The position numbers were made by a program, and so were the translations under genes. Below, in pieces: positions 1 through 17,094 of a stretch of 44,025 nucleotides of DNA. The notes below the pieces were generated by a model. It was not told the origin of the DNA. It searched no databases and was given only the letters and a program-made list of their open reading frames with translations. Source of the DNA: a virus. Lineage: Duplodnaviria > Heunggongvirae > Uroviricota > Caudoviricetes. Positions within the stretch are counted from its first letter, which is position 1. Every line of letters starts with the position of its first letter. The stretch is from IMG/VR virus record IMGVR_UViG_2917408641_000004. The stretch is one strand, 5' to 3'.

Positions 1-19
1 CTATTTGATAAATATTAAA

Positions 20-1315: not shown

Positions 1316-1334
1316 TAGTTAGTGTGGCTTTTAG

Positions 1335-1586: not shown

Positions 1587-1658
1587 CGATTTCTTTATCT
1601 CTTACATCAGACGAGCGCCGGTTGCAGAATACCAGTCACAACCGGCGACAGTTGAACA

Positions 1659-4130
1659 TTAAGAATCAGCCTGACTCGGGATCAGTTTTTGCCAGATAAC
1701 TGAAACGTATTTTGCCTGGTAACGGGCGTCATCAAGTGCATTATGGCGCTCACCTTCGAATGGAATAGCCGTTCTGGCATCGAAGTCTATGGCTTTCCCC
1801 AGCTCAACGATTGTGCGTACATCGCGATCGTTGTAGTAACGCCACGGGCAGGGGATCCCCTGCCGTTCGTATGAACGGCGCAAAATCGTGTTGTCGAAGT
1901 TGGCTCCATTTCCCCAGACCTGAACAAAAAATTCACCGGAGTTTTCGTCGATAAATTCCCGCAATTGTAACAGTGCATCATCTAACGGGATTTCATCGGT
2001 CATAATGGCAGATTGCGCTTCGCGTGATTGCTTAAGCCACCATTTAATGGTGTCCCGATCAATGACTCCGCCAGCAGTTTCCAGATCGATAGTCTTACTA
2101 AATTCGGGTCCCATATCTCCGGTTTGCGGATCGAAAAATATTGCACCTATTGAGATGATCGGGGCATCAGGATTTTTTCCCATGGTTTCAAGGTCGATCA
2201 TTAGATGGTCACACGTCCTGCTGGTGGATGTGATTTCGTGATGACCGTTCACCTTAATTGAGTGATCTGCCGTCTCGCCAGTTTCATTATCGCTATTGTG
2301 ATGCTGATTGCCGCCAGTGTTCTCCTTGTGTGGATGTTCAGCGCCTTCCATTTCCTCCGGATCATCTTCCTGAACTTCAACCTGATACTCTTCATCGAAT
2401 GTTTCTTGGTATGTTGCGTCGCCCATCACCGCGCCACAATCAGGGCAGTTGCCGCCGCCGGTCTGACCGCAGGCGGTGCAGACTTTTTCCACTTCCTGTT
2501 GCGCCACTGGTTCAGGCTGTTTCGTTTCTGGCTCGTTTTGTAACGCATTTGGGCTGTTTTGTTCCGCTTTTTGGTAGTTCCGTTCCGATTCATGCTGGTT
2601 CTGGTTCACAGAATCGCGGGTCTGGATCCCCTTAACCCATTTCGGATCATTCGGGTCACTAATCCCTTCAACAAATTCACCACGTGATGCAGCAAGCAAC
2701 TTATCGGCGTCAGGCTGGCTGATATTGGCTGCCTGCATAATTTTGTTTACTTCGTCAGCGGTAACTTTTATCGGCTCTGGTTGTTCTGAATCTTCAGCGG
2801 TATCTACATTTTGCGGTAAGCCCGTGTATGTGCCATTTTTTCGGGCAAAATATTCTTCTTTTGTGATTTCAGTGGCGCCAGCAGCCAGTGCCTTATCCAG
2901 ACCAGAAAGTTTGTTTGCGCGACCGTATTTTTCTCCGTCCTTATCTGCGAAGAGGAAATAGAACGGCCCCTCACGCTCTACAGATGGTTCAGCTTCCGGC
3001 GCGGTTTCATTTTTTGGGATATCAGATACCTCAGTTTCCACTGCATCAGTTTGTGTTTCTGATGACTGGAGAACATCAACAGTGCCTAGGTCTGTTTCTT
3101 CATTCTCAAACACGCCCTTTGTCGTCAGGTATTCGCAGATATATTTGTTCAGTGCTACGGGATCTTTGTGAATGTCGATCGGACGCTCACGGACAAGGCC
3201 AAAAATAGTTTGGCGGTCGTAGCGAAGGGCATCAGGCTGTTTGCGCATTGATGCCGAGATACGCTTCCAGTCTTCGCGGTCGTTGTCGATAACTTCTTTT
3301 TTTGCCCAGCGATGGATGCTGCCGTCAATGTTTCCGGCATCCACATCACCAGGCCAGAGAGCGTAGGCCAGTTCGTCATCCAGTGTTTTCCATGTCTGCT
3401 TGTATTCGCGATGAATGGCAGCAATGACCGGGCTGATTTTTCCTGTTGAATTTTCAGTGTACTGTTGATTGGCTCTGGCGCGGGCGAGATCAACAACAGA
3501 CGTGTATTTTCCGGTTTCCTTGCGTTCACCTTCGCGACGTTTTTTCCAGATGCGCATCTCTGCCTGAATTTCGGGCCATTTAGCACCAGGAATACATTTA
3601 TGCTTAACCCACCCAATGGCGTGCAACTTAAGCTCCGGATACATGGCGTTAACTTCTGGCATTTTCATCAACGCTTCAACGATATGTCCGTCGAATGTTG
3701 CCATGTCTTCCTGCAACAATTCCTGTGCGCTAATAACCATATCAACGGTGATGTTTTCACATGTGTCGAACTTAACCATGACAGCGTTCTGTACTTCAGG
3801 GGCCAGCTTGTCAAAAGTGACGTTCATCGGATCGGATTCAGTCTCAACCGGGACAAAAGAAGCAGACTCCTCATCCCAGCGGTTTTCCTGCATATATTCA
3901 GCATCCCATGAATCGAGGGCAGGGCGGGGTATGCCAGGTTTATCCTCGCAGACAATAAATTTATAAGCGCAGTCCTGAGCAGCCGGATAATGTTCCAGGA
4001 ACTGCCAGTGAAATTTTGCTCGAGCACGGCGTTCGTCGCCAGCTTCAATGGCTGTGGCTACAGCCACAGCGCCTTCTTCCCTTGTTGCCAGTTCGTCAGG
4101 AATAGCGGCGCAAATAAAGACTTTACTCAT
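1659..4130 (-). CDS. Large phage exonuclease with C-terminal DEDDh 3'-5' exonuclease domain
   Basis: 823-aa ORF; C-terminal ~190 aa carry Exo I/II/III-like motifs (MIDLETMG, WGNGANFD, HNALDDARY); central Cys4 cluster CTACGQ..CPDCG; occupies the recombination-gene position. Confidence 0.75.
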   Translation of the reverse strand: MSKVFICAAIPDELATREEGAVAVATAIEAGDERRARAKFHWQFLEHYPAAQDCAYKFIVCEDKPGIPRPALDSWDAEYMQENRWDEESASFVPVETESDPMNVTFDKLAPEVQNAVMVKFDTCENITVDMVISAQELLQEDMATFDGHIVEALMKMPEVNAMYPELKLHAIGWVKHKCIPGAKWPEIQAEMRIWKKRREGERKETGKYTSVVDLARARANQQYTENSTGKISPVIAAIHREYKQTWKTLDDELAYALWPGDVDAGNIDGSIHRWAKKEVIDNDREDWKRISASMRKQPDALRYDRQTIFGLVRERPIDIHKDPVALNKYICEYLTTKGVFENEETDLGTVDVLQSSETQTDAVETEVSDIPKNETAPEAEPSVEREGPFYFLFADKDGEKYGRANKLSGLDKALAAGATEITKEEYFARKNGTYTGLPQNVDTAEDSEQPEPIKVTADEVNKIMQAANISQPDADKLLAASRGEFVEGISDPNDPKWVKGIQTRDSVNQNQHESERNYQKAEQNSPNALQNEPETKQPEPVAQQEVEKVCTACGQTGGGNCPDCGAVMGDATYQETFDEEYQVEVQEDDPEEMEGAEHPHKENTGGNQHHNSDNETGETADHSIKVNGHHEITSTSRTCDHLMIDLETMGKNPDAPIISIGAIFFDPQTGDMGPEFSKTIDLETAGGVIDRDTIKWWLKQSREAQSAIMTDEIPLDDALLQLREFIDENSGEFFVQVWGNGANFDNTILRRSYERQGIPCPWRYYNDRDVRTIVELGKAIDFDARTAIPFEGERHNALDDARYQAKYVSVIWQKLIPSQADS

Positions 4131-4223
4131 TTTGTTTTAACCTCATGACAGATTTAAGGATGAACAAATCCCTGCCATTGCTGGCATATAAGAATGAAAC
4201 CGGATATTTATTACGGAACTGTT

Positions 4224-4415
4224 TTAAAGACCTGCCGGGATTTCGATATTATCCAGGTGAATAACTTTATCGACCGGGTAACAGTTACCGGGAATTTTCT
4301 GTTCGGTTGCTGCAGTCATACACTCCTGCATTGTCCTGTGAACACTGACTGCAATATCAACTGGCTCTCCGGAAACAAGAAAAACTGTCAGAACAAGCGC
4401 AAATGCTGAATTCAT
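4224..4415 (-). CDS. Small hypothetical protein with N-terminal signal peptide
   Basis: 63 aa from ATG at 4415 (SD AAGGA 8 nt upstream); hydrophobic N-terminus MNSAFALVLTVFLVSG; ATGA overlap with upstream gene suggests translational coupling. Confidence 0.5.
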   Translation of the reverse strand: MNSAFALVLTVFLVSGEPVDIAVSVHRTMQECMTAATEQKIPGNCYPVDKVIHLDNIEIPAGL

Positions 4416-4600
4416 TGTGCACATCCTTTTGGCATCAGACGTAAACGAGCCAGCATTGAAACAATGCATATTTTATTTAATAGCTCCCGTTCTTGTTTTC
4501 TCTTGTTAATGGCATCTTCAGTAAATACAGGGTTACTGATAGTGACACCAATTTCAAAACAACCTTCAGACGTATTAACGTTTGGTAATAACGTTTTCAT
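4412..4600 (-). CDS. Small hypothetical early protein
   Basis: 62 aa from ATG at 4600 with SD GAGGA 7 nt upstream; stop overlaps start of next gene (ATGA). Confidence 0.5.
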   Translation of the reverse strand: MKTLLPNVNTSEGCFEIGVTISNPVFTEDAINKRKQERELLNKICIVSMLARLRLMPKGCAQ

Positions 4601-5102
4601 TATCGCGTCCTCAACAATGAATTTTGTGATGCAGTGCCTGGTGCCTCCAGGTGACGTTAACCAGTTAACAATTAACGCCGGATACAGAGAATCCACCCAT
4701 AACACTGTTTTTGGTTTTAACTGTTCCGCGTGCGCTTAGCCGCATTCACCGCATCACAAAATTCACTTTAAAAACGGCGGCAGAGCAGTCACGGAGTAAA
4801 ACTGATACCGCCAAACGTCACCAGAAAATTGATAACAGAGGGCGTTGCAGCGGGGTTGTCACTTAAGCGTATGGTCAACCTGACAACTCGGTGTCCTCAA
4901 CGGGGAAGGAATAACCCCGCCATACTTACCGCCGCGCCATTTCGCGGGTTGCCACAACCGGAAGCGCACGGTCGAATTAAATTTAACGACACCGTACAGT
5001 GAGACGAACTTCGCCGTGCGCTTTCGTGTTGTGTGCCTGCTTTTAACCACGTCAGGCGAGGTGGTATCCTTCTTATCCCGAATAACCAAGAAGGAAATCT
5101 AT

Positions 5103-5303
5103 ATGACTAAAGAAGAATTTGTCTCTTATATTTTTGATAAAACGGTTGAAATGTATGCCGCTACTTACGGGTCCTGTAATCCTCTGAATAAACCAGAGGG
5201 GAAAGATGATTTCGACAAAATTTACCGCTTCTTGGAGGACCGCTATATCAAAAGGTTAGAGGACGCAGGGATCAAATCCCCAGTGAAGTCACCATTGTCC
5301 TGA
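5103..5303 (+). CDS. Small hypothetical protein
   Basis: 66 aa from ATG 5103 with SD AAGGAA; transcribed opposite to the flanking early genes. Confidence 0.45.
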   Translation: MTKEEFVSYIFDKTVEMYAATYGSCNPLNKPEGKDDFDKIYRFLEDRYIKRLEDAGIKSPVKSPLS

Positions 5304-5366
5304 GAACTTGCAGGACGTCATGATCGTAACTTCCATCCAAACCGCGACGGCAAATTGCTTCTCGTA

Positions 5367-5636
5367 TTACCGGAAGCAGTTCGCTGGAAATCTCGGTGAT
5401 ATTTCACCTGATAATACGCCTGGCTCAAGTGAGAATATTGGTGAACTTACGCTCTTGGTCTCGACAGTTTCAGAGTCAGTGCCAACATTATAAAGCTCAA
5501 CGAAAGCGGTCTTGATTTTCCGGGCCAGATCTTTTGCTGGCTCGCTTGCAATATCTTTCCCGATTTCTCGCAGCACAGAATGCAATGTATGAGCTGCTGT
5601 TTTCTGTACATCAGACGGTAAATCTTTAAATTCCAT
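5367..5636 (-). CDS. Small hypothetical early protein
   Basis: 89 aa from ATG at 5636 preceded by GAGG; overlaps stop of upstream gene. Confidence 0.45.
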   Translation of the reverse strand: MEFKDLPSDVQKTAAHTLHSVLREIGKDIASEPAKDLARKIKTAFVELYNVGTDSETVETKSVSSPIFSLEPGVLSGEISPRFPANCFR

Positions 5637-5647
5637 CGTCAGCCTCA

Positions 5648-5800
5648 TCAGTCAGTGTTTCTGGCTAACCAGCAACGCGCGCCAGATTCGGTTTTAAACG
5701 TTTTGCTTTTGGTATATGTCATCGCGGTGAACGTACCGTCCTGGTTGGGGAACACGCCACATACCAGAGATTCGCTGTTGCCAAGATCGATAGTATCCAT
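5648..5800 (-). CDS. Small hypothetical early protein
   Basis: 50 aa from ATG at 5800 preceded by GAGG. Confidence 0.4.
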   Translation of the reverse strand: MDTIDLGNSESLVCGVFPNQDGTFTAMTYTKSKTFKTESGARCWLARNTD

Positions 5801-5966
5801 GCTGACCTCATTTCCCCTTAACGCCGGGGTAGCGGAACTGTTTGCTGAGAACACCGTGCGGTGTGTTGATGCAAACAAGATTAGCTATGACTAACATATT
5901 GGTCAAGTGATTTTGTATGTTATGACTAACATAATTAATGTAGTAAAAGATAACTCATTGATGATG

Positions 5967-6374
5967 TTATCTTTTATTTGTCCGCTGACGGGCTTTTAGT
6001 AATTCTTCAAAGAGTTTATTGAAGTTTTTTACTCGAGCTCGCATTTCGGCGAGCTGGGTATCCTGTTCTGATTCTGGCAGTGCATTAAACAGCTCAAGGA
6101 GCTCTAGTTCTTTGGGAGATAAGGCAACTGGCTTCTCAACAGGTGGTGTTGGTTGCTTGTCTTCATCGCCAAATAGAATCCATGTTGGTGAGCATTGCAA
6201 TACTTTGCTGAGGGCAAAAAGGTTCTTCCCTGTAGGTTCACTATCATCCCGTTCCCATTGTGATACAGACACATGGGAGATTTTCAGGGCTTTAGCAAGA
6301 GACCTTTGGGTGTGTTTGAGGTTTTTCCGACGATACCTAATGCGTTCGCCGATAGTTAAATTTTTTGTATCCAT
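5967..6374 (-). CDS. Prophage repressor, HTH XRE family (RacR/CI-like, no S24 peptidase domain)
   Basis: 135 aa; N-terminal helix-turn-helix (QRSLAKALKISHVSVSQWER); divergently arranged with a cro-like gene across an operator-like palindromic intergenic region. Confidence 0.8.
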   Translation of the reverse strand: MDTKNLTIGERIRYRRKNLKHTQRSLAKALKISHVSVSQWERDDSEPTGKNLFALSKVLQCSPTWILFGDEDKQPTPPVEKPVALSPKELELLELFNALPESEQDTQLAEMRARVKNFNKLFEELLKARQRTNKR

Positions 6375-6457
6375 AGTTAGCTAATGCTAAATCGTATTGA
6401 CTATGTTTTTGTTAACATCTATTTTGTTAGTTATAACTAACAATCAAGGTGTTTTAA
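6375..6457. promoter_or_regulatory. Divergent promoter/operator region of the immunity switch
   Basis: 83-bp intergenic region between repressor and cro-like starts; perfect 20-bp palindrome TTGTTAGTTATAACTAACAA at 6424-6443 plus shorter palindromes TTAGCTAA and TGTTAACA; TTGACT -35-like hexamer at 6397. Confidence 0.5.
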
Positions 6458-6688
6458 ATGCTTAAAACTGACGCTCTTTTGTATTTCGGTTCAAAAACAA
6501 AACTTGCACAAGCAGCTGGTATTCGTTTGGCTTCGCTTTATAGCTGGAAAGGGGATTTAGTTCCCGAAGGTCGCGCGATGCGTCTACAGGAGGCATCTGG
6601 CGGGGAGCTTCAGTATGACCCCAAAGTTTATGACGAATATCGTAAGACGAAGCGGGCGGGGCGGTTGAACAATGAAAATCACTCCTGA
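6458..6688 (+). CDS. Cro/YdaS-like HTH regulator
   Basis: 76 aa; SD AAGGTG upstream; HTH-like segment KLAQAAGIRLASLYSW; divergent from repressor as in Rac racR-ydaS. Confidence 0.7.
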   Translation: MLKTDALLYFGSKTKLAQAAGIRLASLYSWKGDLVPEGRAMRLQEASGGELQYDPKVYDEYRKTKRAGRLNNENHS

Positions 6689-7193
6689 ACAGGCTCGTGA
6701 GGCTCTGGATGCCTGGATATGTCGACCAGGAATGACACAGGAGCAGGCGACGATATTAATCACTGAAGCATTCTGGGCTTTGAAAGAGCGCCCGAACATC
6801 GATGTTAAGCGTGTCACAGATGAAGGTGGCGCGGTTGATCAGCGAGCGCTTGGCGTTAATCGAGTGAAGATATTCGAACGCTGGAAGGCTATCGACACCA
6901 GGGATAAGCGTGAAAAGTTCATGGCGCTAGTGCCTGCAATTATGGAGGCTATCCGGATTAATGATTTCAGGTTATATCGTGAAATTAGTGACGGAAAAAG
7001 CATCACGTATATGATCGCCGGGTTAAACAAAGAATATGGCGATGTGGTGGAGTCCGGACTGCTTTTTGCTGATCCTGCCGTAGTGGATCGTGAAACTGAC
7101 GAACTTATAGAAAAAGCAATTGCTTTCAAGCTTGCGTATCGACAGCAATACCAACAAAAAGCTGGATGGAATTATGAGTCTTCTTTTTGCTGA
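6672..7193 (+). CDS. YdaT/CII-like protein
   Basis: 173 aa; start overlaps end of cro-like gene by 17 nt; position and size match the second gene of Rac-type ydaS-ydaT pairs; family assignment by synteny only. Confidence 0.5.
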   Translation: MKITPEQAREALDAWICRPGMTQEQATILITEAFWALKERPNIDVKRVTDEGGAVDQRALGVNRVKIFERWKAIDTRDKREKFMALVPAIMEAIRINDFRLYREISDGKSITYMIAGLNKEYGDVVESGLLFADPAVVDRETDELIEKAIAFKLAYRQQYQQKAGWNYESSFC

Positions 7194-8139
7194 ACGCCCA
7201 CTGGTTATAAACACACAGCTTGCGATGAAGATTGGCTTAAACGAGGCCATTGTGTTGCAGCAGTTGCATTACTGGTTGAGAGATACTAATTCCGGTATGG
7301 AATGTGATGGTGTCCGCTGGATTTATAACACAACGGAACAATGGCTGGAACAGTTCCCATTCTGGTCAGAGTCAACGTTAAAGCGCGCGTTTGCAAGTCT
7401 GAAAACGCTGGGGCTTTTGCGTTGCGAAAAGCTCAATAAATCAAAGCGCGACATGACCAATTTCTACACGATCAACTATGGGTGCGAGCTTTTAGATGGT
7501 GGTAAATTGAGCGTATCCATCGGTTCAAAATGCGCTGCTCCATCAGGTCTAAATGATACGATGGAAGAGGTCAAAATGAAACGCTCCATTGGTTCAAAAC
7601 GACCCAATGTCATCGGGTCAAAATGGCCTGATGATCTTACAGAGAATACAACAGAGATTACTACAGAGAATAAAAACACTTTTCGTCCGGAAGCTTCGCA
7701 ACCGGACCCGCAGACGACTGAACAGGATTTTTTAACCCGGAACTCCGACGCGGTTGTGTTTAGTGCGAAAAAACGCCAGTGGGGTAGCAGGGAGGATTTG
7801 GCGTGTGCGCAGTGGATCTGGGGGCGGATCGTGGGTCTCTACGAACAGGCAGCCAGTGATGATGGCGAGATCATGCGACCAAAAGAGCCTAACTGGACTG
7901 CCTGGGCCAATGACGTGCGCACAATGCGGATGCTGGATGGCAGAAGCCACAGACAAATTTGCGAAATGTTTGGTCGGGTTCAGCGAGATCCATTCTGGGT
8001 AAAAAACATCATGAGCCCGTCAAAGCTCCGCGAAAAATGGGACGAACTGGTCATCCGCCTGGGACGTTCACCTGTACAGCGTTGTGTTAATCATATTTCT
8101 GAACCGGATACAGAAATTCCGCCTGGTTTCAGAGGATAA
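7174..8139 (+). CDS. Phage replication initiator (O-like N-terminus, DnaT-like C-terminus)
   Basis: ATG at 7174 (an alternative TTG start at 7120 exists); iteron repeats lie inside the coding region, encoding repeated IGSK peptides; C-terminus ..VNHISEPDTEIPPGFRG matches the C-terminal signature of primosomal protein DnaT. Confidence 0.7.
   Translation: MSLLFAERPLVINTQLAMKIGLNEAIVLQQLHYWLRDTNSGMECDGVRWIYNTTEQWLEQFPFWSESTLKRAFASLKTLGLLRCEKLNKSKRDMTNFYTINYGCELLDGGKLSVSIGSKCAAPSGLNDTMEEVKMKRSIGSKRPNVIGSKWPDDLTENTTEITTENKNTFRPEASQPDPQTTEQDFLTRNSDAVVFSAKKRQWGSREDLACAQWIWGRIVGLYEQAASDDGEIMRPKEPNWTAWANDVRTMRMLDGRSHRQICEMFGRVQRDPFWVKNIMSPSKLREKWDELVIRLGRSPVQRCVNHISEPDTEIPPGFRG
7517..7625. repeat. 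Replication origin iterons (five approx. 23-bp-spaced repeats) followed by A-rich region
   Basis: Repeats CCATCGGTTCAAAATG (7517), CCATCAGGTCTAAATG (7540), GAGGTCAAAATG (7567), CCATTGGTTCAAAACG (7586), TCATCGGGTCAAAATG (7610); followed by ACAGAGA(A/T)TA triplicate in an A-rich stretch to about 7685. Confidence 0.6.
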
Positions 8140-8179
8140 GTGTTGATTTCAGGTCATGAGGTAATTTTAAGGGGGACTT

Positions 8180-8602
8180 GTGGCAAAAGTTTTTACACAA
8201 GAAGAGCGGGAAAAAATTAAAGGGCAGGTGGTGGAACTCGTGCGCCAGAGCGGTCGTGAGACGTTACGGCAACTGGAAGCTAAAACAGGTGCGACTAGAT
8301 ATCTGATGAGCGTTCTTGCCAGAGAGCTGGTAGCCAGTGGCGATGTATACAACTCCGGCTACGGGTTATTCCCGTCTGAACAGGCGCGTAAGGACTGGCA
8401 AAACGCCCGCAAAAAACTCTCGAGGGCAAAGGTGAAGAAACCTGCTGTGGTTGATCCGGACCTTATCTGGTCATTACCTGACGGAGAAATACGCCGCTAC
8501 GACAGTCGTCTAAACATAATCTGTCGCGAGTGCCGGAAGAGCGAAGTTATGCAGCGTGTTCTGACGTTTTATCAGGGGAATTATCGGGAGGTGATGCTGT
8601 GA
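8180..8602 (+). CDS. Hypothetical phage protein
   Basis: 140 aa; GTG start preceded by strong SD AAGGGGG. Confidence 0.5.
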   Translation: MAKVFTQEEREKIKGQVVELVRQSGRETLRQLEAKTGATRYLMSVLARELVASGDVYNSGYGLFPSEQARKDWQNARKKLSRAKVKKPAVVDPDLIWSLPDGEIRRYDSRLNIICRECRKSEVMQRVLTFYQGNYREVML

Positions 8603-8832
8603 GTACATCGGCTACCATTCTCGACATGTGCTGTGGCAGTCGCATGCTCTGGTTCGATAAGAATGACGAATGGTCGATATTTAGCGATATCAGGAAAGAG
8701 GAACATTCGCTATGTGATGGACGTCACCCGATTATTAATCCCGACATTATCGCTGATTTTCGTGCGCTGCCGTGGTTGTCTGCTTTGCATCAAAAGCAGA
8801 CATTACCAGATTTAGACATCTGTTTCCGATAG
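8600..8832 (+). CDS. Small ORF with SAM-methyltransferase motif I-like segment (possible gene fragment)
   Basis: About 77 aa from GTG 8600 (SD GGAGG upstream); segment [13 protein letters not shown] resembles MTase motif I but the protein is far too short to be a complete methyltransferase. Confidence 0.3.
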
Positions 8833-8864
8833 CCCGTTCTGATGCTACACTTTTTGCTATTTTC

Positions 8865-9551
8865 ATGAACCTCATAAACACATTTATGACTGTTGCTGAT
8901 TTCAAACGCCCCAAATTGGAGCTCCCAAACGGGGCAAAAAAACTATTACTGCACTCTTGCTGTGCTCCATGTTCCGGTGAAGTGATGGAGGCGCTTCAGG
9001 CCTCGGGAATCGACTACACCATCTTTTTCTACAACCCGAACATTCATCCTCAGAAAGAGTATTTAATTCGTAAGGATGAGAATATTCGCTTTGCTAAACA
9101 ACACGGCGTGCCATTTATTGATGCTGATTACGACACAGACAACTGGTTTGAGCGAGCCAAAGGAATGGAATGGGAGCCTGAACGAGGGATCCGTTGTACC
9201 ATGTGTTTTGACATGCGTTTTGAGCGGACTGCACTGTATGCCGCTGAAAATGGTTTCAGTGTGATCAGTAGCTCACTGGGCATTTCACGCTGGAAAAATA
9301 TGCAGCAGGTTAACGACTGTGGACGGCGAGCCGTCGCGCATTATCCGGGCATGGTGTACTGGGATTATAACTGGCGAAAACAGGGCGGCTCTTCCCGCAT
9401 GATTGAAATCAGCAAGCGCGAACAATTCTATCAGCAGGAATATTGTGGCTGCGTGTATTCACTGCGCGATACCAATCTACACCGCAAATCTCAGGGACGC
9501 CCTCTAATCAAAATTGGTCAACTGCACTACGGTAAAGAAGGACAGGAATGA
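8865..9551 (+). CDS. queH: Epoxyqueuosine reductase QueH family protein (DUF208)
   Basis: Cysteine motifs [19 protein letters not shown] and QEYCGCVYS characteristic of QueH; ATG at 8865 chosen because the upstream in-frame extension from 8772 is non-conserved. Confidence 0.75.
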
Positions 9552-9631
9552 TTTTATATTATGCCAACGGAGCGTAGCAGTGTTTCTATATATAGTACGC
9601 CTACCTTAATTTTCAAATAATCATGATTAAT

Positions 9632-9672
9632 GAGCAGGTCATCAGTGCAAGCAATGACCTGCTCATCTTGTT
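9632..9672 (+). terminator. Rho-independent terminator after queH
   Basis: Perfect 11-bp inverted repeat GAGCAGGTCAT / ATGACCTGCTC (9632-9642 and 9654-9664) with 11-nt loop, followed by a T-containing tract. Confidence 0.55.
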
Positions 9673-10163
9673 GAAATTAGAGGAAATCTTGCAGCCATGA
9701 TATGGCTTAAAATAACGTTTGATTATTTTACCTGCTGTTTGTCCCTGGTTTAAAGTCGGTTGTCTGATTTGATTACGCGCAACTGACGCTTACGTATTGA
9801 AGTAACGAGCACGAAGACACATATTTATCAGTGCCTGTATACGTCAAGAGCAGGAGATTTATGTGCTGGTTCTCAAATGCACGCTGGCTATTGTGGCTGT
9901 AATGGCAATTTATTGTCTTGTTATTGTTCTTATGGATCACCTTTCTGATTGATTTCATATTGGCGAGGTAACGGTAGTTAAGTAGAATGGCTGCGGGTGC
10001 TTGAGGCTATCTGCCTCGGGCATGAACACCAACGGCAGATAGAGAAAAGCCCCAGTTAACATTACGCGTCCTGCAAGACGCTTAACATTAATCTGAGGCC
10101 AATTTCATGCTAGACACATGTAGGTTAGCCTCTTACGTGCCGAAAGGCAAGGAGAAGCAGGCT

Positions 10164-10319
10164 ATGAAGCAGCAAAAGGCGATGTTAATCGCCCTGATCG
10201 TCATCTGTTTAACCGTCATAGTGACGGCACTGGTAACGAGGAAAGACCTCTGCGAGGTACGAATCCGAACCGGCCAGACGGAGGTCGCTGTCTTCACAGC
10301 TTACGAACCTGAGGAGTAA
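10164..10319 (+). CDS. hokD: Hok/Gef family type I toxin (HokD/RelF-like)
   Basis: 51-aa product MKQQKAMLIALIVICLTVIVTALVTRKDLCEVRIRTGQTEVAVFTAYEPEE: single TM helix plus conserved Hok C-terminus; SD AAGGAG upstream; 3' hairpins and terminator downstream as in hok mRNAs. Confidence 0.85.
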   Translation: MKQQKAMLIALIVICLTVIVTALVTRKDLCEVRIRTGQTEVAVFTAYEPEE

Positions 10320-10388
10320 GAGACCCGGCGAGGGAGAAATCCCTCGCCACCTCTGATGTGGCAGGCATCCTCAACGCACCCGCACTTA

Positions 10389-10415
10389 ACCCGCTTCGGC
10401 GGGTTTTTGTTTTTA
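10389..10415 (+). terminator. Rho-independent terminator of hok transcript
   Basis: ACCCGC-TTCG-GCGGGT hairpin followed by TTTTTGTTTTT; a second hairpin CGAGGGA-GAAA-TCCCTCG lies at about 10329-10346. Confidence 0.7.
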
Positions 10416-10535
10416 TTTTCAACGCGTTTGAAGTTCTGGACGGTGCCGGAATAGAATCAAAAATACTTAAGTAGCGCGCAGGGATAAGAGGGATGGTCCC
10501 TTAAAGGGGAGAGCTAATTATCCGGAAGGATTCTG

Positions 10536-10772
10536 ATGATGAACATCGAAGAACTGCGTAAAATTTTTTGTGAAGATGGCCTCTATGCTGTGTGCGTTGA
10601 AAATGGAAATCTTGTTAGTCATTACCGCATTATGTGTTTGCGAAAGAATGGGGCTGCGTTAATTAATTTTGTGGATGGTCGAGTGACAGACGGATTTATC
10701 TTGCGCGAAGGTGAGTTTGTCACTTCATTACAGGCACTGAAAGAGATCGGAATAAAAGCAGGCTTTTCGTAA
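10536..10772 (+). CDS. Rem-like small protein, 3' end replaced by IS66-family insertion
   Basis: 78-aa ORF whose last codon and stop are supplied by the IS end; removing the IS and one TSD copy restores an 83-aa ORF ending ..GFSAFAEE, the size I recall for Qin Rem; family call by synteny. Confidence 0.5.
   Translation: MMNIEELRKIFCEDGLYAVCVENGNLVSHYRIMCLRKNGAALINFVDGRVTDGFILREGEFVTSLQALKEIGIKAGFS
10761..10768. repeat. 8-bp target-site duplication of IS66-family element (left copy; right copy 14906-14913)
   Basis: GGCTTTTC directly flanks both imperfect terminal inverted repeats. Confidence 0.8.
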
Positions 10773-11121
10773 CCGGCTCATTTAAACCGTCTGGTCTGTT
10801 TCCTCCGGCTCTACAAAAATAATGTCCATCATTTTTAATGGACACTATCGTATGAAACACCGGACCTGGATCACTGAAGCTTTACGTCTTCACTTTGAAG
10901 AACATTTACCCCGGGTTGTGGCCGGGCGTCGCCTGGGTGTACCAAAATCAACAGTTTGTAGTATGTTCGTGCGCTTTCGGAGAGCTGGCCTTTCGTGGCC
11001 TTTGCCCGCAGGCATGTCGGAGCAGGAACTTGATGCCTGCCTTTACGGACAATTTTCCACGGTACCAGTCGTACGTCCTGAAAGCACCGTTATATCCGAA
11101 GCCCCCGTGGTAAAAAAACGT

Positions 11122-11133
11122 CCCCGGCGGCCC
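11122..11133. repeat. 12-bp target-site duplication of IS4 (left copy; right copy 12560-12571)
   Basis: CCCCGGCGGCCC present immediately outside both IS4 ends. Confidence 0.85.
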
Positions 11134-12559
11134 TAATGCCAGTCAGTTAAGCAACTGACTGGCTCTTTTTCGGGGCTGTGGGGTATTTCCAGGGCCTCTC
11201 CTTTACCACTCTCGGGAAGGCCCTTTCCCTTCTTGTCGGTAATTTCACAAGTTGTCCCATACTTGCAAGATCGCGCATCAGCTCCGGTATACGTCCCGGT
11301 GAAGCGCCCTGCAATGTCATCAGCATTCTCATCACCATTCCGCATGATTCTGAGAAACTCAGTTGATTCGGCCAGTAACCTTTCAGATGTTCTGCCATTT
11401 TAATCATCTGATATCTCACCAGATTATAAGCCAGTAAGACACCCCACAGCTCTTGCTCCACAAGCTCCGGCTTTTTACTTCTCAGCGTCAGCCTGCTCAG
11501 TTGCATCGTCTGTTTTATCTCCCTGTATCCCAGTTCGATTTCCCAGCGATGACTGTACAGATCCGCCATTTCTCCTCCGGGGAAGCGCATGGCGTCCGTC
11601 ATCGACGTCAGCAGATGGCAGACTTTTCCTTTGCGCGTCACGGTCAGCAGGCGGGCTGTCACCTCATTTCCCAGCCCCGGCCACTTTTTTCGTGCCTGCG
11701 GGCTGGTTTTCAGCTTCACCAGATGATCGCCTTTACCCAGTTTTCTGATCTCTTCATATTGCGCTCCCTTTCTGAGAGGGATCATCCAGTGGCGGTGTTC
11801 TCCCGCCTGGCTCCAGGCATTTAACAGTCCCAGTGAGTAATAACCTTTATCCATTAACGTCAGGGTGTTATCGCCGGTTTGTTCTATAAGTTGCTCAGCA
11901 AGCTCATTTTCGCTGTTCTTCATCGTGCCGAAGGCTGCAGCCGTCAGCAGATGGCTGGTCAGTTCCATCTGGCAGACCATTTTGACCTGCGGGTAGAGCG
12001 CCGGGTTCCCGGCATGTGTCTGGCGGGGGAAGGCTGCATCGTTCTCTGGTGTATCCGGTGTGCGCCAGAACACACCATCGATGGCCAGCAGGGTCAGGCC
12101 GCACCAGTGCGGATGCGGCGTGGCGTTATGCCAGAGCTGCGCTGTTTTCGTGAACACGCGGCGGACAGCCTCACTTCCCAGACGCTGGCGGGCCTGAATA
12201 ACGGCACTGGGGGCAACGAAGGGGCGATTGCCCGGCAGCATGATGTCCAGGCGATTCACAATCTGGTGAAGAGGTTCTTTACGCTCAAGCGCCATGCCAA
12301 CAATACACCAGACCATCATTTCGAGGGGAAGACGGCGCTTGCGTAGCGTTACAGTACCTGATTCGGCAAGGCAACGAGAGATGAGTTCGGGGTCGAGGTA
12401 ATCCCCCAGAGAAGTCAGTGGGTTACGCAGAGAATCGTAACGGGATACCAAATCAAGGGCCTGTCCAATGAGCATAAAAAAATCCGGAAACGAGTGAGCG
12501 TTTCCGGATTCTTACACAGCCACTGGATCGGTCAACTGATCCTTAACTGATCGGCATTA
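11134..12559 (-). mobile_element. IS4, complete copy
   Basis: 1426 bp, matching the known IS4 length; terminal inverted repeats TAATGCC(A/G)..TCAGTTAAG; single 442-aa transposase; 12-bp TSD within the expected 11-13 bp range. Confidence 0.9.
11147..12475 (-). CDS. insG: IS4 transposase
   Basis: 442-aa ORF filling the IS4 element; IS4-family DDE transposase. Confidence 0.9.
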
Positions 12560-12571
12560 CCCCGGCGGCCC
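12560..12571. repeat. 12-bp target-site duplication of IS4 (right copy)
   Basis: CCCCGGCGGCCC, identical to 11122-11133. Confidence 0.85.
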
Positions 12572-12936
12572 AACTTCCCTTATGAGTTTAAAATCGCCTT
12601 AGTGGAGCAGTCACTGCAGCCCGGAGCCTGTGTGGCGCAGATCGCCCGGGAAAACGGAATCAACGATAACCTGCTCTTCAACTGGCGCCATCAATACCGG
12701 AAAGGTGGCCTGCTGCCTTCCGGAAAAAATATGCCGGCACTGCTTCCCGTGACGTTAACGCCGGAGCCGGATAATAAAATCCCGGCCCCCGCACAGGAAC
12801 CAGAGCAGATAAATACACCGTCCGACAGTCTGTGTTGTGAGCTGGTTCTGCCGGCCGGAACTCTCAGGCTTAAAGGTAAACTGACGCCGGCGTTATTACA
12901 GACACTTATCCGCGAAATAAAAGGGAGCAGCCACTG

Positions 12937-13284
12937 ATGATATCTCTCCCTGCCGGTTCGCGTATCTGGCTGGTTGCAGGTATCACCGATATGCGAAATG
13001 GCTTTAACGGCCTGGCATCAAAAGTTCAGAACGTCCTGAAGGATGACCCGTTCTCCGGACACCTGTTCATCTTCCGCGGACGCCGGGGTGACCAGATAAA
13101 AGTGTTGTGGGCTGACAGTGACGGACTGTGCCTCTTCACCAAACGCCTGGAGCGGGGCCGCTTCGTCTGGCCAGTCACCCGTGACGGCAAGGTGCACCTT
13201 ACTCCGGCTCAGTTATCCATGCTTCCTGAAGGTATCAACTGGAAGCACCCGAAACGAACGGAACGCGCTGGAATCCGCATATAA
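12937..13284 (+). CDS. tnpB: IS66-family TnpB (Orf2)
   Basis: 115 aa; start overlaps tnpA stop (ATGA); typical IS66 Orf2 sequence (..IWLVAGITDMRNGFNGLA..). Confidence 0.85.
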   Translation: MISLPAGSRIWLVAGITDMRNGFNGLASKVQNVLKDDPFSGHLFIFRGRRGDQIKVLWADSDGLCLFTKRLERGRFVWPVTRDGKVHLTPAQLSMLPEGINWKHPKRTERAGIRI

Positions 13285-13303
13285 CCCGTTGTAAAGTGAG
13301 GAT

Positions 13304-14875
13304 ATGGACACCTCACTTGCTCATGAGAACGCCCGCCTGCGGGCACTGTTGCAGACGCAACAGGACACCATCCGCCAGATGGCTGAATACAACCGCCTGC
13401 TCTCACAGCGGGTGGCGGCTTATGCTTCCGAAATCAACCGGCTGAAGGCGCTGGTTGCGAAACTGCAACGTATGCAGTTCGGTAAAAGCTCAGAAAAACT
13501 TCGTGCAAAAACCGAACGGCAGATACAGGAAGCTCAGGAGCGAATCAGCGCACTTCAGGAAGAAATGGCGGAAACGCTGGGTGAGCAATATGACCCGGTA
13601 CTGCCATCCGCCCTGCGCCAGTCTTCAGCCCGTAAACCGTTACCGGCCTCACTTCCCCGTGAAACCCGGGTTATCCGGCCGGAAGAGGAATGCTGTCCTG
13701 CCTGTGGTGGTGAACTCAGTTCTCTGGGATGTGATGTGTCAGAGCAACTGGAGCTTATCAGCAGCGCCTTTAAGGTTATCGAAACACAACGTCCGAAACT
13801 GGCCTGTTGCCGGTGCGACCATATCGTGCAGGCACCAGTACCTTCAAAACCCATTGCACGCAGTTATGCCGGAGCGGGGCTTCTGGCCCATGTTGTCACC
13901 GGGAAATATGCAGACCATCTGCCGTTATACCGCCAGTCAGAAATATACCGTCGTCAGGGAGTGGAGCTGAGCCGTGCCACACTGGGGCGCTGGACCGGTG
14001 CCGTTGCTGAACTGCTGGAGCCGCTGTATGACGTCCTGCGCCAGTATGTGCTGATGCCCGGTAAAGTCCATGCCGATGATATCCCCGTCCCGGTCCAGGA
14101 GCCGGGCAGCGGTAAAACCCGGACAGCCCGGCTGTGGGTCTACGTCCGTGATGACCGCAACGCCGGTTCACAGATGCCCCCGGCGGTCTGGTTCGCGTAC
14201 AGTCCGGACCGGAAAGGTATCCATCCACAAAATCACCTGGCCGGTTACAGCGGTGTGCTTCAGGCCGATGCTTACGGTGGTTACCGGGCGTTATACGAAT
14301 CCGGCAGAATAACGGAAGCCGCGTGTATGGCTCATGCCCGGAGAAAAATCCACGATGTGCATGCAAGAGCGCCCACCGACATCACCACGGAAGCCCTGCA
14401 GCGTATCGGTGAACTGTATGCTATCGAGGCAGAGGTCCGGGGCTGTTCAGCAGAACAGCGTCTGGCGGCAAGAAAAGCCAGAGCCGCGCCACTGATGCAG
14501 TCACTGTATGACTGGATACAGCAACAGATGAAAACACTGTCGCGTCACTCAGATACGGCAAAAGCGTTCGCATACCTGCTGAAACAGTGGGATGCACTGA
14601 ACGTGTACTGCAGTAATGGCTGGGTGGAAATCGACAACAACATCGCAGAGAACGCCTTACGGGGAGTGGCCGTAGGCCGGAAAAACTGGATGTTCGCGGG
14701 TTCCGACAGCGGTGGTGAACATGCGGCGGTGTTGTACTCGCTGATCGGCACATGCCGTCTGAACAATGTGGAGCCAGAAAAGTGGCTGCGTTACGTCATT
14801 GAACATATCCAGGACTGGCCGGCAAACCGGGTACGCGATCTGTTGCCCTGGAAAGTTGATCTGAGCTCTCAGTAA
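13304..14875 (+). CDS. tnpC: IS66-family transposase TnpC
   Basis: 523 aa; N-terminal coiled-coil/leucine zipper, CxxC..CxxC zinc motif (CPACGG..CCRCDH) and DDE-type C-terminal region characteristic of IS66 transposases. Confidence 0.85.
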
Positions 14876-14905
14876 ATATCAATACGGTTCTGACGAGCCG
14901 CTTAC

Positions 14906-14913
14906 GGCTTTTC
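14906..14913. repeat. 8-bp target-site duplication of IS66-family element (right copy)
   Basis: GGCTTTTC, identical to 10761-10768. Confidence 0.8.
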
Positions 14914-14998
14914 AGCTTTTGCAGAAGAATAAACTCATCTACAATCTTGCGCGGGGCTGAACTCCCGCTGAGTAACACCGTGCCACCGGAGAAAACCG

Positions 14999-15277
14999 AT
15001 GGCACGCAACGTAAAATATTACAATTCTGATAATTCGCCCGTTCTTGCCTGCACGCACGAGCGGTATTCTCACGCATTCAAGTCTGAATGGTTCCAGCAC
15101 CCTCCATGCACTGAAGAGCAGGCTGAATGGATAATTCAGTGTTACCGCAGGCGCGGATACGAGGTTAAGAAAGCCCTTAGTCTCGACTACCGTCACTGGA
15201 TAATCTCAGTCAGATTGCCTTACTCCGAACGCCCACCGCGTCCGTCCCGTACATTCCAGCAACGCATCTGGAGGTAA
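14999..15277 (+). CDS. Hypothetical phage protein
   Basis: 92 aa; SD GGAG upstream; directly precedes the DUF968-like gene. Confidence 0.45.
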   Translation: MARNVKYYNSDNSPVLACTHERYSHAFKSEWFQHPPCTEEQAEWIIQCYRRRGYEVKKALSLDYRHWIISVRLPYSERPPRPSRTFQQRIWR

Positions 15278-15278
15278 C

Positions 15279-16328
15279 GTGCGGGTATTACTTCGACCTG
15301 TTCTGGTACCGGAACTCGGGCTGGTGGTCGTTAAGCCGGGCCGTGAATCCATGCCGGTATTCCACAATACCCGGGTACTGGTGGAGCCGGAACCGAAAAG
15401 CATGCGTAATCTGCCGTCCGGGGTCGTTCCTGCCGTTCGCCAGCCGCTGGTGGAAGACAAAACATTGCTGCCGTTTTTCAGTAACGCACGGGTAATTCGT
15501 GCTGCTGGTGGTGCTGGTGCATTGTCTGACTGGCTGTTGCGCCATATTAAATCCTGCCAGTGGCCACACGGCGATTATCATCACAGCGAAACCGTTATTC
15601 ACCGTTATGGTACCGGCGCAATGGTGTTGTGCTGGCACTGCGACAACCAGCTGCGTGACCAGACATCCGAATCACTCGAGCAACTTGCTCATCAAAACCT
15701 GTCAGCATGGATGATTGACGTCATCGGTCACGCAATAAGCGGTACGCAGGAGCGTGAATTATCTCTGGCTGAATTATCCTGGTGGGCGGTCCGCAATCAG
15801 GTGGCGGACGCGCTACCGGAAGCGGTATTACGTCGCTCGCTGGGATTACCAGCGGAAAAAAACTGCTCGGTGTACCGCGAAAGCGACATCGTACCGGGAG
15901 AGCAGACCGCCACCAGCATATTGAAACAGCGCACAAAAAATCTTGCACCGTTGCCTCACGCCCACCAGCAACAAAACCCATCACAGGAAAAGACGGTGGT
16001 AAGCATCACCGTTGATCCAGAGTCTCCGGAATCTTTCATGAAGCTGCCTAAACGTCACCGTTGGGTTAAGGAGAAATACACACGCTGGGTTAAGACACAG
16101 CCGTGTGCTTGCTGCGGTATGCCAGCCGACGATCCGCATCATCTGATTGGTCACGGGCAGGGCGGAATGGGAACCAAAGCACATGATCTCTTTGTGTTGC
16201 CTTTGTGCAGAAAGCATCACGACGAGCTGCATGCGAATACCGTGGCATTTGAAGAGAAGTATGGCTCCCAGCTGGAGCTGATATTTCGTTTTATCGATCG
16301 TGCGCTGGCAATAGGCGTACTGGCGTAA
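15279..16328 (+). CDS. YdfU-like protein (DUF968) with HNH-like His/Cys motif
   Basis: 349 aa; C-terminal CACCGMPADDPHHLIGHG..H..LCRKHHDELH motif; located immediately upstream of Q as in Qin-type prophages. Confidence 0.55.
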   Translation: MRVLLRPVLVPELGLVVVKPGRESMPVFHNTRVLVEPEPKSMRNLPSGVVPAVRQPLVEDKTLLPFFSNARVIRAAGGAGALSDWLLRHIKSCQWPHGDYHHSETVIHRYGTGAMVLCWHCDNQLRDQTSESLEQLAHQNLSAWMIDVIGHAISGTQERELSLAELSWWAVRNQVADALPEAVLRRSLGLPAEKNCSVYRESDIVPGEQTATSILKQRTKNLAPLPHAHQQQNPSQEKTVVSITVDPESPESFMKLPKRHRWVKEKYTRWVKTQPCACCGMPADDPHHLIGHGQGGMGTKAHDLFVLPLCRKHHDELHANTVAFEEKYGSQLELIFRFIDRALAIGVLA

Positions 16329-16341
16329 GTGGAGAACGAGC

Positions 16342-17094
16342 ATGAACCTTGAAGCTTTACCAAAATATTACTCCCCAAAATCTCCAAAATTGAGTGATGA
16401 CGCACCGGCGACAGGCTCGGGTGGTTTAACAATAACAGATGTGATGGCTGCGCAGGGGATGGTGCAGTCGAAAGCTCCGCTTGGTTTTGCCTTATTCCTG
16501 GCAAAAGTTGGTGTTCAGGATCCTCAGTTTGCGATTGAAGGTCTGCTCAATTACGCGATGGCAATGGATAATCCGACATTGAACAAATTGAGTGAAGAAA
16601 TCCGGTTACAGATCATCCCTTACCTTGTGAATTTTGCCTTTGCTGATTATTCCAGGTCTGCGGCAAGTAAGGCTCGCTGTGAGTATTGTGCTGGTACTGG
16701 ATTTCATAATGTATTGCGCGAAGTGGTGAAACACTCCAGAAGTGGGGAATCTGTTATCAAGGAAGAGTGGGTGAAGGAACTATGTCAGCATTGCCATGGT
16801 AAGGGAGAAGTCAGCACAGCGTGCAGAGGGTGTAAGGGGAAAGGTATTGTCCTGGATGAAAAAAGAACCCAGCTTCATAGCACGCCTGTTTATAAGGTTT
16901 GTGGGCGTTGCAATGGAAACCGGTTTAGTCGTTTACCAACGACACTGGCGCGGTGTCATGTCCAGAAGCTGGTACCAGACCTGACGGATTATCAGTGGTA
17001 CAAAGGATATGCAGATGTCATTGATAAACTGGTTACAAAGTGCTGGCAGGAAGAAGCATATGCTGAGGTGCAATTAAGAAAAGTGACGAGATAA
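16342..17094 (+). CDS. Late-gene antiterminator Q
   Basis: 250 aa; multiple CxxC zinc motifs (CEYCAGTG, CQHCHGKG, CRGCKGKG, CGRCNG); located upstream of the lysis genes. Confidence 0.7.
   Translation: MNLEALPKYYSPKSPKLSDDAPATGSGGLTITDVMAAQGMVQSKAPLGFALFLAKVGVQDPQFAIEGLLNYAMAMDNPTLNKLSEEIRLQIIPYLVNFAFADYSRSAASKARCEYCAGTGFHNVLREVVKHSRSGESVIKEEWVKELCQHCHGKGEVSTACRGCKGKGIVLDEKRTQLHSTPVYKVCGRCNGNRFSRLPTTLARCHVQKLVPDLTDYQWYKGYADVIDKLVTKCWQEEAYAEVQLRKVTR

What the first reader, a model, noticed from the sequence alone, without database searches (positions are those of the whole stretch)
10536..14913. Nested insertion: complete IS4 inside an IS66-family element inside the 3' end of a rem-like gene
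Both insertion events are precisely reconstructable. The IS66-family element (10769-14905) is flanked by 8-bp direct repeats GGCTTTTC, and removing it restores an 83-aa ORF. IS4 (11134-12559, exactly 1426 bp) is flanked by 12-bp repeats CCCCGGCGGCCC, and removing it restores an in-frame IS66 tnpA. The IS66-family element is therefore probably immobilised by the IS4 insertion, giving a relative order of events.
Basis: seen in the sequence. Interest (0 to 1): 0.6.

Follow-up and report, generated by a model that had tools for sequence, protein, structure and literature searches.

The report
IS4 nested in ISCro1 in rem

Summary
An IS66-family element (ISCro1, 2,699 bp once cleaned) lies at 10769-14905 between GGCTTTTC repeats in the 3' end of rem. 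A 1,426-bp IS4 lies at 11134-12559 between CCCCGGCGGCCC repeats in ISCro1 tnpA. Excision in silico gives a rem region 100% identical to intact annotated rem alleles, and a 225-aa TnpA 224/225 identical to an intact one. The window comes from Escherichia marmotae HT073016, whose genome holds 36 IS4 and 24 ISCro1 copies.

The element is probably non-autonomous. It is not shown to be immobile: both ends are intact and at least 10 intact ISCro1 copies share the genome. The order of events at rem is also unproven, because IS4-free rem::ISCro1 alleles in other strains carry a different ISCro1 haplotype.

The added result is that this 12-bp site is a recurrent IS4 landing site. It is used in both orientations, in at least three diverged IS66-type backbones, and by at least five IS4 alleles. 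At least six ISCro1 copies in this genome alone are occupied.

This is an ordinary, already annotated kind of structure, of low interest.

The parts
10536..10772 (+). rem', truncated to 78 aa; the last sense codon and the TAA stop span the junction with the IS
   Evidence: an identical 78-aa product is annotated 'protein Rem' in GPEC996; Pfam Rem (PF27490) is on record for it
10761..10768 (.). left copy of the 8-bp target duplication GGCTTTTC made by ISCro1
10769..14905 (+). ISCro1 (IS66 family) interrupted by IS4: 4,137 bp as found, 2,699 bp after removal of IS4 plus one repeat copy
   Evidence: 2,699 bp and an 8-bp duplication agree with published ISCro1 (PMC6963479, PMC12115866)
10769..10790 (.). 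ISCro1 left terminal inverted repeat (GTAACCGGCTC...), imperfect
   Evidence: alignment of the two ends
10822..11136 (+). tnpA N-terminal fragment (104 aa, no Pfam family); its stop TAA is the first three bases of IS4
11122..11133 (.). left copy of the 12-bp IS4 target duplication CCCCGGCGGCCC (codons P-R-R-P of TnpA)
11134..12559 (-). IS4, complete, 1,426 bp, 99.0% identical to IS4 of K-12 (14 differences)
11138..11163 (+). terminator-like hairpin plus T run just inside the IS4 end that faces the incoming tnpA transcript
   Evidence: consensus scan only
11147..12475 (-). IS4 transposase, 442 aa, intact; 438/442 identical to K-12 InsG
12560..12571 (.). right copy of the 12-bp IS4 target duplication
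12572..12937 (+). tnpA C-terminal fragment (121 aa, HTH_Tnp_1), in frame with the N-terminal fragment after excision; TGA overlaps the tnpB ATG
12937..13284 (+). tnpB (115 aa, TnpB_IS66), intact
13304..14875 (+). tnpC (523 aa, DDE_Tnp_IS66 with zinc-finger and leucine-zipper domains), intact
14884..14905 (.). ISCro1 right terminal inverted repeat (...GAGCCGCTTAC)
14906..14932 (+). right copy of GGCTTTTC followed by the displaced last codons and stop of rem (AFAEE*)

Best explanation
Shown: the window is part of a Qin-type prophage of Escherichia marmotae HT073016. Its rem gene carries a 2,699-bp ISCro1 (IS66 family), inserted with an 8-bp duplication five codons before the stop. The tnpA gene of that ISCro1 carries a complete IS4, inserted with a 12-bp duplication.

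Shown by comparison: the IS4 site is not accidental. IS4 chooses targets that have an A run, a short spacer and a G+C-rich core of 11-13 bp, which it duplicates. These targets are usually terminator-like hairpins. The P-R-R-P codons of ISCro1-type tnpA (AAAAAAACGT-CCCCGGCGGCCC) offer one good arm of this kind. IS4 has therefore entered this exact position repeatedly, in both orientations, in several diverged IS66-type elements.

Inferred: the insertion splits TnpA between its N-terminal extension and its helix-turn-helix core. It also places a terminator-like hairpin in front of tnpB and tnpC, so this copy can probably no longer move on its own. It remains a substrate for ISCro1 proteins supplied by the intact copies in the same genome, and for homologous recombination.

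Inferred, with roughly even odds: ISCro1 was already in rem when IS4 hit it.
For: Structure: the repeats, lengths, reading frames and domains are confirmed. The cleaned sequences match intact alleles.

Source: L011 is 100% identical to window 4536-16772. CP025979 is E. marmotae HT073016.

Recurrent site:
- The same junction occurs in 78 complete E. coli genomes and 144 plasmids in one orientation, and in 9 genomes in the other orientation.
- The pINV-type element is only 89-96% identical to ISCro1, yet carries a 99%-identical IS4 flanked on both sides by its own variant repeat, CCCCGGCGGCCT.
- The ML35-type junction is shifted by 1 nt.
- The IS4 alleles inside composites fall into at least five groups, which match different free IS4 alleles.
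- L009 and L063 share an IS4 allele but have different backbones.
- In HT073016, Table S6 shows ISCro1 #2 and #4 with IS4 in one orientation. #5 has IS4 in the other orientation, with identical fragment sizes and spacing. #7, #19 and pEM148 #20 have IS4 beside the C-terminal fragment.

Target rule: of 44 independent IS4 left arms from other species, 36-38 have A at positions -19/-18, the stretch -15 to -9 is C-rich, and 39 have G at -1. A weight matrix built from these arms ranks the true arm 15th of 85,054 positions in the IS4-free window.

Polarity: a hairpin plus T run lies at 11138-11163.
Against: - The second arm of the site scores poorly. On both arms together the site ranks only 361st of 127,536, below several unoccupied terminator hairpins in the window. 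The sequence rule alone therefore does not explain how often the site is used. High copy number of the target, and the harmlessness of hitting another IS, may contribute.
- No IS4-free allele was found at four other composite loci.
- The two orientation-A composites of this genome share a private IS4 protein allele and the W backbone. Both observations fit movement of the composite as a unit.
- The IS4-free rem alleles have backbone C, not W, so insertion of IS4 in place at rem is not demonstrated.
- Polarity and loss of autonomy rest on a consensus scan and on my recollection of Han et al. 2001 that tnpA, tnpB and tnpC are all needed. That paper could not be opened.
Confidence: 0.85

Rival explanations
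1. The ISCro1::IS4 composite arrived in rem as one 4,137-bp unit, moved by TnpA/B/C supplied from intact ISCro1 copies. On this view IS4 entered ISCro1 before, not after, the rem insertion.
For: Composites with their own perfect 8-bp duplications lie at six other loci read in full, and further flanking contexts appear in draft assemblies. No IS4-free allele was found at four of these loci. A second composite in the same genome differs by only 3 nt and shares the W backbone and a private IS4 protein allele. At least 10 intact ISCro1 copies are available in trans. The W backbone was seen here only with IS4, including on a Shigella dysenteriae plasmid.
Against: The composite would have had to use exactly the same 8 bp of rem as the C-type ISCro1 did in GPEC996 and AIFA01000040. 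In the ynfM-asr region, independent ISCro1 insertions are close together but never at the same base. The W-type composite of S. dysenteriae carries the local Shigella IS4 allele, not the window's allele, which argues for separate IS4 hits on W backbones.
Confidence: 0.25
2. rem originally held an IS4-free ISCro1. IS4 and the W markers were then copied into it by gene conversion or double crossover from another composite in the genome, without any transposition at this locus.
For: IS4 copies in this genome do recombine. The duplicated copy at 2.72 Mb has a hybrid IS4, with all 7 differences confined to its right part. The same duplication GGCTTTTC is found with different backbones in different strains.
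Against: The W marker at element position 2692 lies 7 bp from the end of homology, which makes a conversion tract covering it unlikely. No direct evidence was found.
Confidence: 0.1
3. There is no preferred site. One ancestral ISCro1::IS4 composite simply spread by descent, transfer and transposition.
For: In orientation A, the junction is identical in all ISCro1-type composites.
Against: Both orientations occur at the same position, even within one genome. The repeat carries the host variant in the pINV-type element. The ML35-type junction is offset by 1 nt. At least five IS4 alleles are combined with at least four backbones.
Confidence: 0.03
4. The flanking repeats are chance matches, or the arrangement is an assembly artefact.
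For: GGCTTTTC also occurs elsewhere in the window.
Against: Excision restores sequences 100% identical to intact alleles. The 12-mer occurs only at the two junctions. The same structures are present in independent assemblies.
Confidence: 0.01

Closest known systems
ISCro1 (IS66 family, first named in Citrobacter rodentium)
   Same: 2,699 bp after cleaning. It has tnpA-tnpB-tnpC with an ATGA overlap, an 8-bp target duplication and GTAA termini. It is 99.5% identical to copies that RefSeq names ISCro1.
   Different: It carries a distinct haplotype (11 fixed differences, 'W') and is interrupted by IS4.
IS4 of E. coli K-12 (insG)
   Same: 1,426 bp, 18-bp terminal repeats, a 442-aa DDE transposase and a 12-bp duplication. 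It is 99.0% identical.
   Different: 14 nucleotide and 4 amino-acid differences. The K-12 copy sits in unrelated DNA with the repeat ATCTTGGTTCTG.
ISCro1::IS4 and IS66-like::IS4 composites already annotated in E. coli NCTC86 and others, and in the Shigella/EIEC invasion plasmids
   Same: Same insertion position in tnpA and the same 12-bp duplication. RefSeq annotates split tnpA pseudogenes around IS4.
   Different: Different host loci, backbones and IS4 alleles. No complete E. coli genome in the collection has the composite in rem.
Target choice of IS4-family elements. IS231A: a G+C core flanked by bent A/T-rich arms, Hallet et al. 1994, cited in PMC2266710.
   Same: An A run, then a spacer, then a duplicated G+C-rich core. 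PMC2266710 notes 'spectacular apparent insertion specificity' in the IS4 subgroup.
   Different: Here the target lies inside a coding sequence of another IS and has only one good arm. The older papers could not be read here.
rem of the Qin prophage (E. coli K-12)
   Same: An 83-aa product after repair. It lies downstream of hokD in a prophage at the rspB-ynfA side of the chromosome.
   Different: It is truncated by five residues. Its function is unknown, so the consequence cannot be judged.

Membership tests
IS4 (the element itself) | Length 1,426 bp with 18-bp imperfect terminal inverted repeats starting TAATGCC | tested here: met
IS4 (the element itself) | Single transposase with the IS4 N-terminal domain and a DDE_Tnp_1 domain | tested here: met
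   (E 3e-33 and 8e-32); 438/442 identical to K-12 InsG
IS4 (the element itself) | Target duplication of 11-13 bp | tested here: met
   12 bp, CCCCGGCGGCCC
IS4 (the element itself) | Near identity of the DNA to the reference copy | tested here: met
   99.0% identical to NC_000913 IS4
IS66 family / ISCro1 | Three consecutive genes: tnpA (helix-turn-helix), tnpB (IS66 Orf2) and tnpC (IS66 DDE transposase) | tested here: met
   tnpA is continuous only after IS4 is removed
IS66 family / ISCro1 | 8-bp target duplication and terminal repeats beginning GTAA | tested here: met
IS66 family / ISCro1 | Length 2,699 bp and near identity to named ISCro1 copies | tested here: met
   (99.5%). ISfinder itself could not be queried.
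IS66 family / ISCro1 | Ability to transpose (needs tnpA, tnpB and tnpC) | not testable with these tools
   Only inferred. The split tnpA and a terminator-like hairpin argue against autonomy.
rem (Qin prophage gene) | An 83-aa product identical to annotated Rem, located downstream of hokD in a Qin-type prophage | tested here: met
   the local Pfam copy gave no hit, but PF27490 is on record
Composite (compound) transposon | Two copies of one IS bracketing cargo and moving together | tested here: not met
   This is one IS inside another, not cargo between two copies.

The most novel reading that the evidence does not exclude
IS4 uses the P-R-R-P-coding 12-mer of ISCro1-type tnpA as a preferred landing site in either orientation. 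In E. marmotae HT073016 this accounts for at least 6 of 24 ISCro1 copies and about one sixth of the 36 IS4 copies. The result would be one IS systematically disabling another. IS4 could also gain a ride whenever the still-mobilisable composite is moved in trans. I found no description of this in the searchable literature.
Probability: 0.35. Interest if true: 0.4.

Novelty: already known. Interest (0 to 1): 0.2.

Why it matters
The nested insertion matters little in itself. Both elements are textbook insertion sequences, the same composite is already annotated in public genomes, and the interrupted gene (rem) has no known function.

The comparison gives two modest, practical points. First, nesting of insertion sequences does not by itself date events at a locus when the outer element can still be moved in trans or overwritten by recombination. 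Second, IS4 has a sharply defined landing site inside a widespread IS66-family element. That site could serve as a natural target for studying how IS4 chooses targets, and it helps explain why IS4 and ISCro1 are so often annotated together as broken genes in Escherichia and Shigella.

Tried and rejected
- Pfam gave no family for the 78-aa Rem or for the 104-aa TnpA N-terminal fragment.
- Literature searches for an IS4/IS66 association and for the recalled target formula found nothing relevant. Han et al. 2001 could not be opened by DOI or PMC id.
- A scan of species-representative genomes for the occupied junction found nothing. HT073016 is evidently not searchable there.
- Searches for IS4-free ISCro1 at the exact sites of four other composites were negative. 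They revealed nearby but different ISCro1 insertion points instead.
- I first inferred from exact-protein look-ups that both ISCro1 copies of the source genome carry IS4. I dropped this when the published table listed 19 chromosomal copies, most of them intact.
- I first thought IS4 always had one orientation. That was an artefact of an orientation-specific query, corrected.
- I first read the 8-bp repeat around the 17.9-kb duplication as the mark of a one-step transposition. A two-step route is equally possible: IS4 at the degS-mdh hairpin, IS1414 beside it, then recombination with the prophage copies. I left this open.
- A weight matrix for IS4 targets explains one arm of the site but not its frequency of use.
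Full report
**The observation**

- GGCTTTTC lies at 10761-10768 and 14906-14913. It directly flanks a 4,137-bp element whose ends read GTAACCGGCTC... and ...GAGCCGCTTAC.
- CCCCGGCGGCCC lies at 11122-11133 and 12560-12571, its only two occurrences in the window. It directly flanks a 1,426-bp element with 18-bp terminal repeats, 16 of 18 matching.

The ORFs and domains are as expected.
- The inner element has a 442-aa transposase on the minus strand, with Nterm_IS4 and DDE_Tnp_1 domains.
- The outer element has a 104-aa ORF that stops on the first three bases of the inner element. It then has a 121-aa continuation with HTH_Tnp_1, a 115-aa TnpB_IS66 protein and a 523-aa IS66 DDE transposase.

**Reversal in silico**

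Removing IS4 and one repeat copy gives a 2,699-bp element and a 225-aa TnpA. That TnpA is 224/225 identical to the intact TnpA of an uninterrupted copy. TnpB is 114/115 and TnpC 521/523 identical to those of the same copy. The IS4 transposase is 438/442 identical to K-12 InsG.

Removing the outer element and one repeat copy restores an 83-aa Rem. The restored 506-bp region is 100% identical and uninterrupted in at least 15 complete E. coli genomes, all annotated 'rem: protein Rem'. In all, 2,779 genomes cover at least 80% of it.

The interruption costs Rem its last five residues and adds none, because the IS supplies a stop codon at once.

**Identity of the parts**

RefSeq annotation of near-identical DNA names the outer element ISCro1 and the inner one IS4. 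The cleaned length and the 8-bp duplication agree with published ISCro1. The IS4 is 99.0% identical to the K-12 copy.

**Source and setting**

A look-up of the truncated Rem found a locus 100% identical to window 4536-16772 in CP025979.1. This is Escherichia marmotae HT073016, reported to carry 36 IS4, 37 IS1414 and 24 ISCro1 copies.

The prophage sits at the K-12 Qin position, next to rspB-rspA-ynfA-ynfB-speG, with hokD just upstream of rem. No complete E. coli genome in the collection has the whole arrangement. The best matches cover exactly the composite and not its flanks.

**The IS4 site is used again and again**

- The ISCro1-IS4 junction occurs in 78 complete E. coli genomes and 144 plasmids, many of them Shigella invasion plasmids.
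- Composites read in full lie at six other loci: a prophage tail region, ynfM-asr, a site near acuR, traD of an F-like plasmid, an RHS element and a plasmid beside astA. Each has its own perfect 8-bp duplication.
- A look-up of the truncated TnpA lists 179 blocks of the collection. Several further flanking contexts appear in the ten places shown, in draft contigs that break at the IS4 boundary.

This pattern is not the spread of a single composite, for five reasons.
- The element on the invasion plasmids is only 89-96% identical to ISCro1. Yet its IS4 is 99% identical and is flanked on both sides by that element's own variant, CCCCGGCGGCCT.
- A third backbone, in the tRNA-Phe island of ML35 and many other strains, has the junction shifted by one base.
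- The IS4 alleles inside composites fall into at least five groups, which match different free IS4 alleles. These are the K-12 type, a Shigella type identical over the 1,110 bp retained to a free chromosomal copy of the same S. dysenteriae strain, and three others.
- Two composites with the same IS4 allele have different backbones.
- Both orientations occur. In HT073016, the published table shows ISCro1 #2 and #4 (the window) with IS4 antisense to tnpA. ISCro1 #5 has IS4 in the other orientation, with the same fragment sizes (285 and 306 bp) and the same 1,496-bp spacing. ISCro1 #7, #19 and plasmid copy #20 have IS4 in that second orientation beside the C-terminal tnpA fragment.

A search for the second-orientation junction found it in 9 complete E. 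coli genomes, again in three kinds of backbone. My earlier junction searches were specific to one orientation, so their counts are lower bounds.

**Why this site**

A scan of species-representative genomes for the IS4 end gave 44 distinct left arms from Kosakonia, Shigella, Escherichia, Scandinavium, Citrobacter and Brenneria, none of them in an IS66 element. The arms share three features.
- An A run at -23 to -16: 36-38 of 44 have A at -19/-18, and AAAA is present in 30 of 44, against 5% of random positions.
- A C-rich stretch at -15 to -9.
- G at -1 in 39 of 44.

Full copies show that the typical target is a terminator-like hairpin between an A run and a T run, with the 11-13-bp duplication centred on it. 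This fits what I recall of the older IS4 literature, and a review's remark on strong arm specificity in the IS4 subgroup.

The tnpA site, AAAAAAACGT-CCCCGGCGGCCC, has the A run at the right distance and a G+C-rich core. A weight matrix from the 44 arms ranks it 15th of 85,054 positions in the IS4-free window. Its other arm is poor, and on both arms it ranks 361st of 127,536, below several unoccupied hairpins.

Sequence preference therefore explains where in ISCro1 IS4 lands. It does not fully explain how often it lands there. The many copies of the target, and the harmlessness of hitting another IS, probably add to it. That last point is inference.

**Consequences for ISCro1**

The site lies at the P-R-R-P codons, between a 104-aa N-terminal extension with no Pfam family and the helix-turn-helix core. 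A hairpin followed by a T run lies just inside the IS4 end that faces the tnpA transcript. No outward promoter-like site was found at the far end.

I infer that tnpB and tnpC are poorly expressed and that the copy is not autonomous. As I recall, Han et al. 2001 found all three genes necessary in IS679, but I could not open the paper.

'Immobilised' goes too far. Both ends, tnpB and tnpC are intact, and the genome lists at least 10 ISCro1 copies with an uninterrupted 648-bp tnpA.

**Order of events**

Nesting proves that IS4 entered an ISCro1 sequence. Whether ISCro1 was already in rem is open.

Evidence for insertion in place:
- Strains GPEC996 and AIFA01000040 have ISCro1 at the same base of rem, with the same duplication and without IS4.

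Evidence against:
- Those copies have the canonical backbone (C). The window's backbone (W) differs at 11 fixed positions, one of them 7 bp from the end, and most W states also occur in other ISCro1 lineages.
- A second composite in the same genome differs by 3 nt and shares the W backbone and a private IS4 protein allele. It has lost its duplication through rearrangement.
- No IS4-free allele was found at four other composite sites.

Evidence against arrival as a unit:
- ISCro1 insertions in the ynfM-asr region cluster within 50 bp but never share a base.
- The W-type composite of S. dysenteriae carries the local IS4 allele.

My estimates are about 0.55 for insertion in place, 0.25 for arrival as a unit and 0.1 for conversion from another copy.

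**Verdict**

The finding is real and correctly described, and it is an ordinary case of one known IS inside another. The same composite is already annotated in many public genomes. The inferences about immobilisation and timing need softening. The recurrent, two-orientation IS4 landing site in ISCro1-type tnpA is a modest addition, which I could not find described in the searchable literature.

Noticed in passing
window 42724-44025: A 59-bp remnant of the IS4 right end (42724-42782) abuts the end of a 1,315-bp IS256-family element. That element is IS1414: it encodes the EAST1 enterotoxin peptide (astA) within the transposase gene region on the minus strand. The element cuts off the prophage just after the tail-fibre gene and joins it to chromosomal genes of the narZ region. 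There is no target duplication, so a deletion or rearrangement is likely.
   Followed up: partly
source genome CP025979.1, about 2.70-2.72 Mb (L012, L023), compared with window 1-12559: A 17.9-kb segment is present a second time between degS and mdh. It runs from an IS1414 left of the window, through speG...intQ and the left arm of the prophage, to the IS4 inside ISCro1. The second copy is 100% identical except for 7 differences, all in the right part of IS4, so that IS4 is a recombinant. The segment is flanked by an 8-bp repeat (GAGACGTT) inside the degS-mdh terminator hairpin. In another sample, IS4 sits at that same hairpin in the other orientation.
   Followed up: partly
Table S6 of PMC6650469 (source genome): 12 of 33 chromosomal IS4 transposase genes lie within 400 bp of an IS1414 transposase gene. 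This is a second strong IS-to-IS association in this genome.
   Followed up: partly
L006, L050, L051 (ynfM-asr region of three E. coli strains); traD in plasmids: ISCro1 has regional insertion hot spots. Three independent insertions, all in the same orientation, lie at three different bases within about 50 bp between ynfM and asr. Several different insertion points lie near the 5' end of traD in F-like plasmids.
   Followed up: partly
window 10761-14913 compared with L002 and L013: The rem-resident ISCro1 has the same 8-bp duplication in different strains but different backbone haplotypes (W here, C elsewhere). Either rem is hit repeatedly at one base, or the copies are overwritten by recombination.
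   Followed up: partly
source genome, ISCro1 #15 at 2894091-2896654 (Table S6): This copy has tnpA split into 291-bp and 306-bp ORFs only 30 bp apart, with no IS4 between them. It could be a frameshift near the IS4 site or a trace of a past insertion.
   Followed up: no
window 10107-10319: A Hok-family toxin ORF (hokD-like) lies just upstream of rem, as in the K-12 Qin prophage.
   Followed up: no
L003 (E. coli ML35, tRNA-Phe island): An IS66-type tnpA fragment is joined to an IS4 that is itself cut off at base 407 by the inverted end of another IS66-family element. This decayed arrangement is shared by dozens of genomes.
   Followed up: partly
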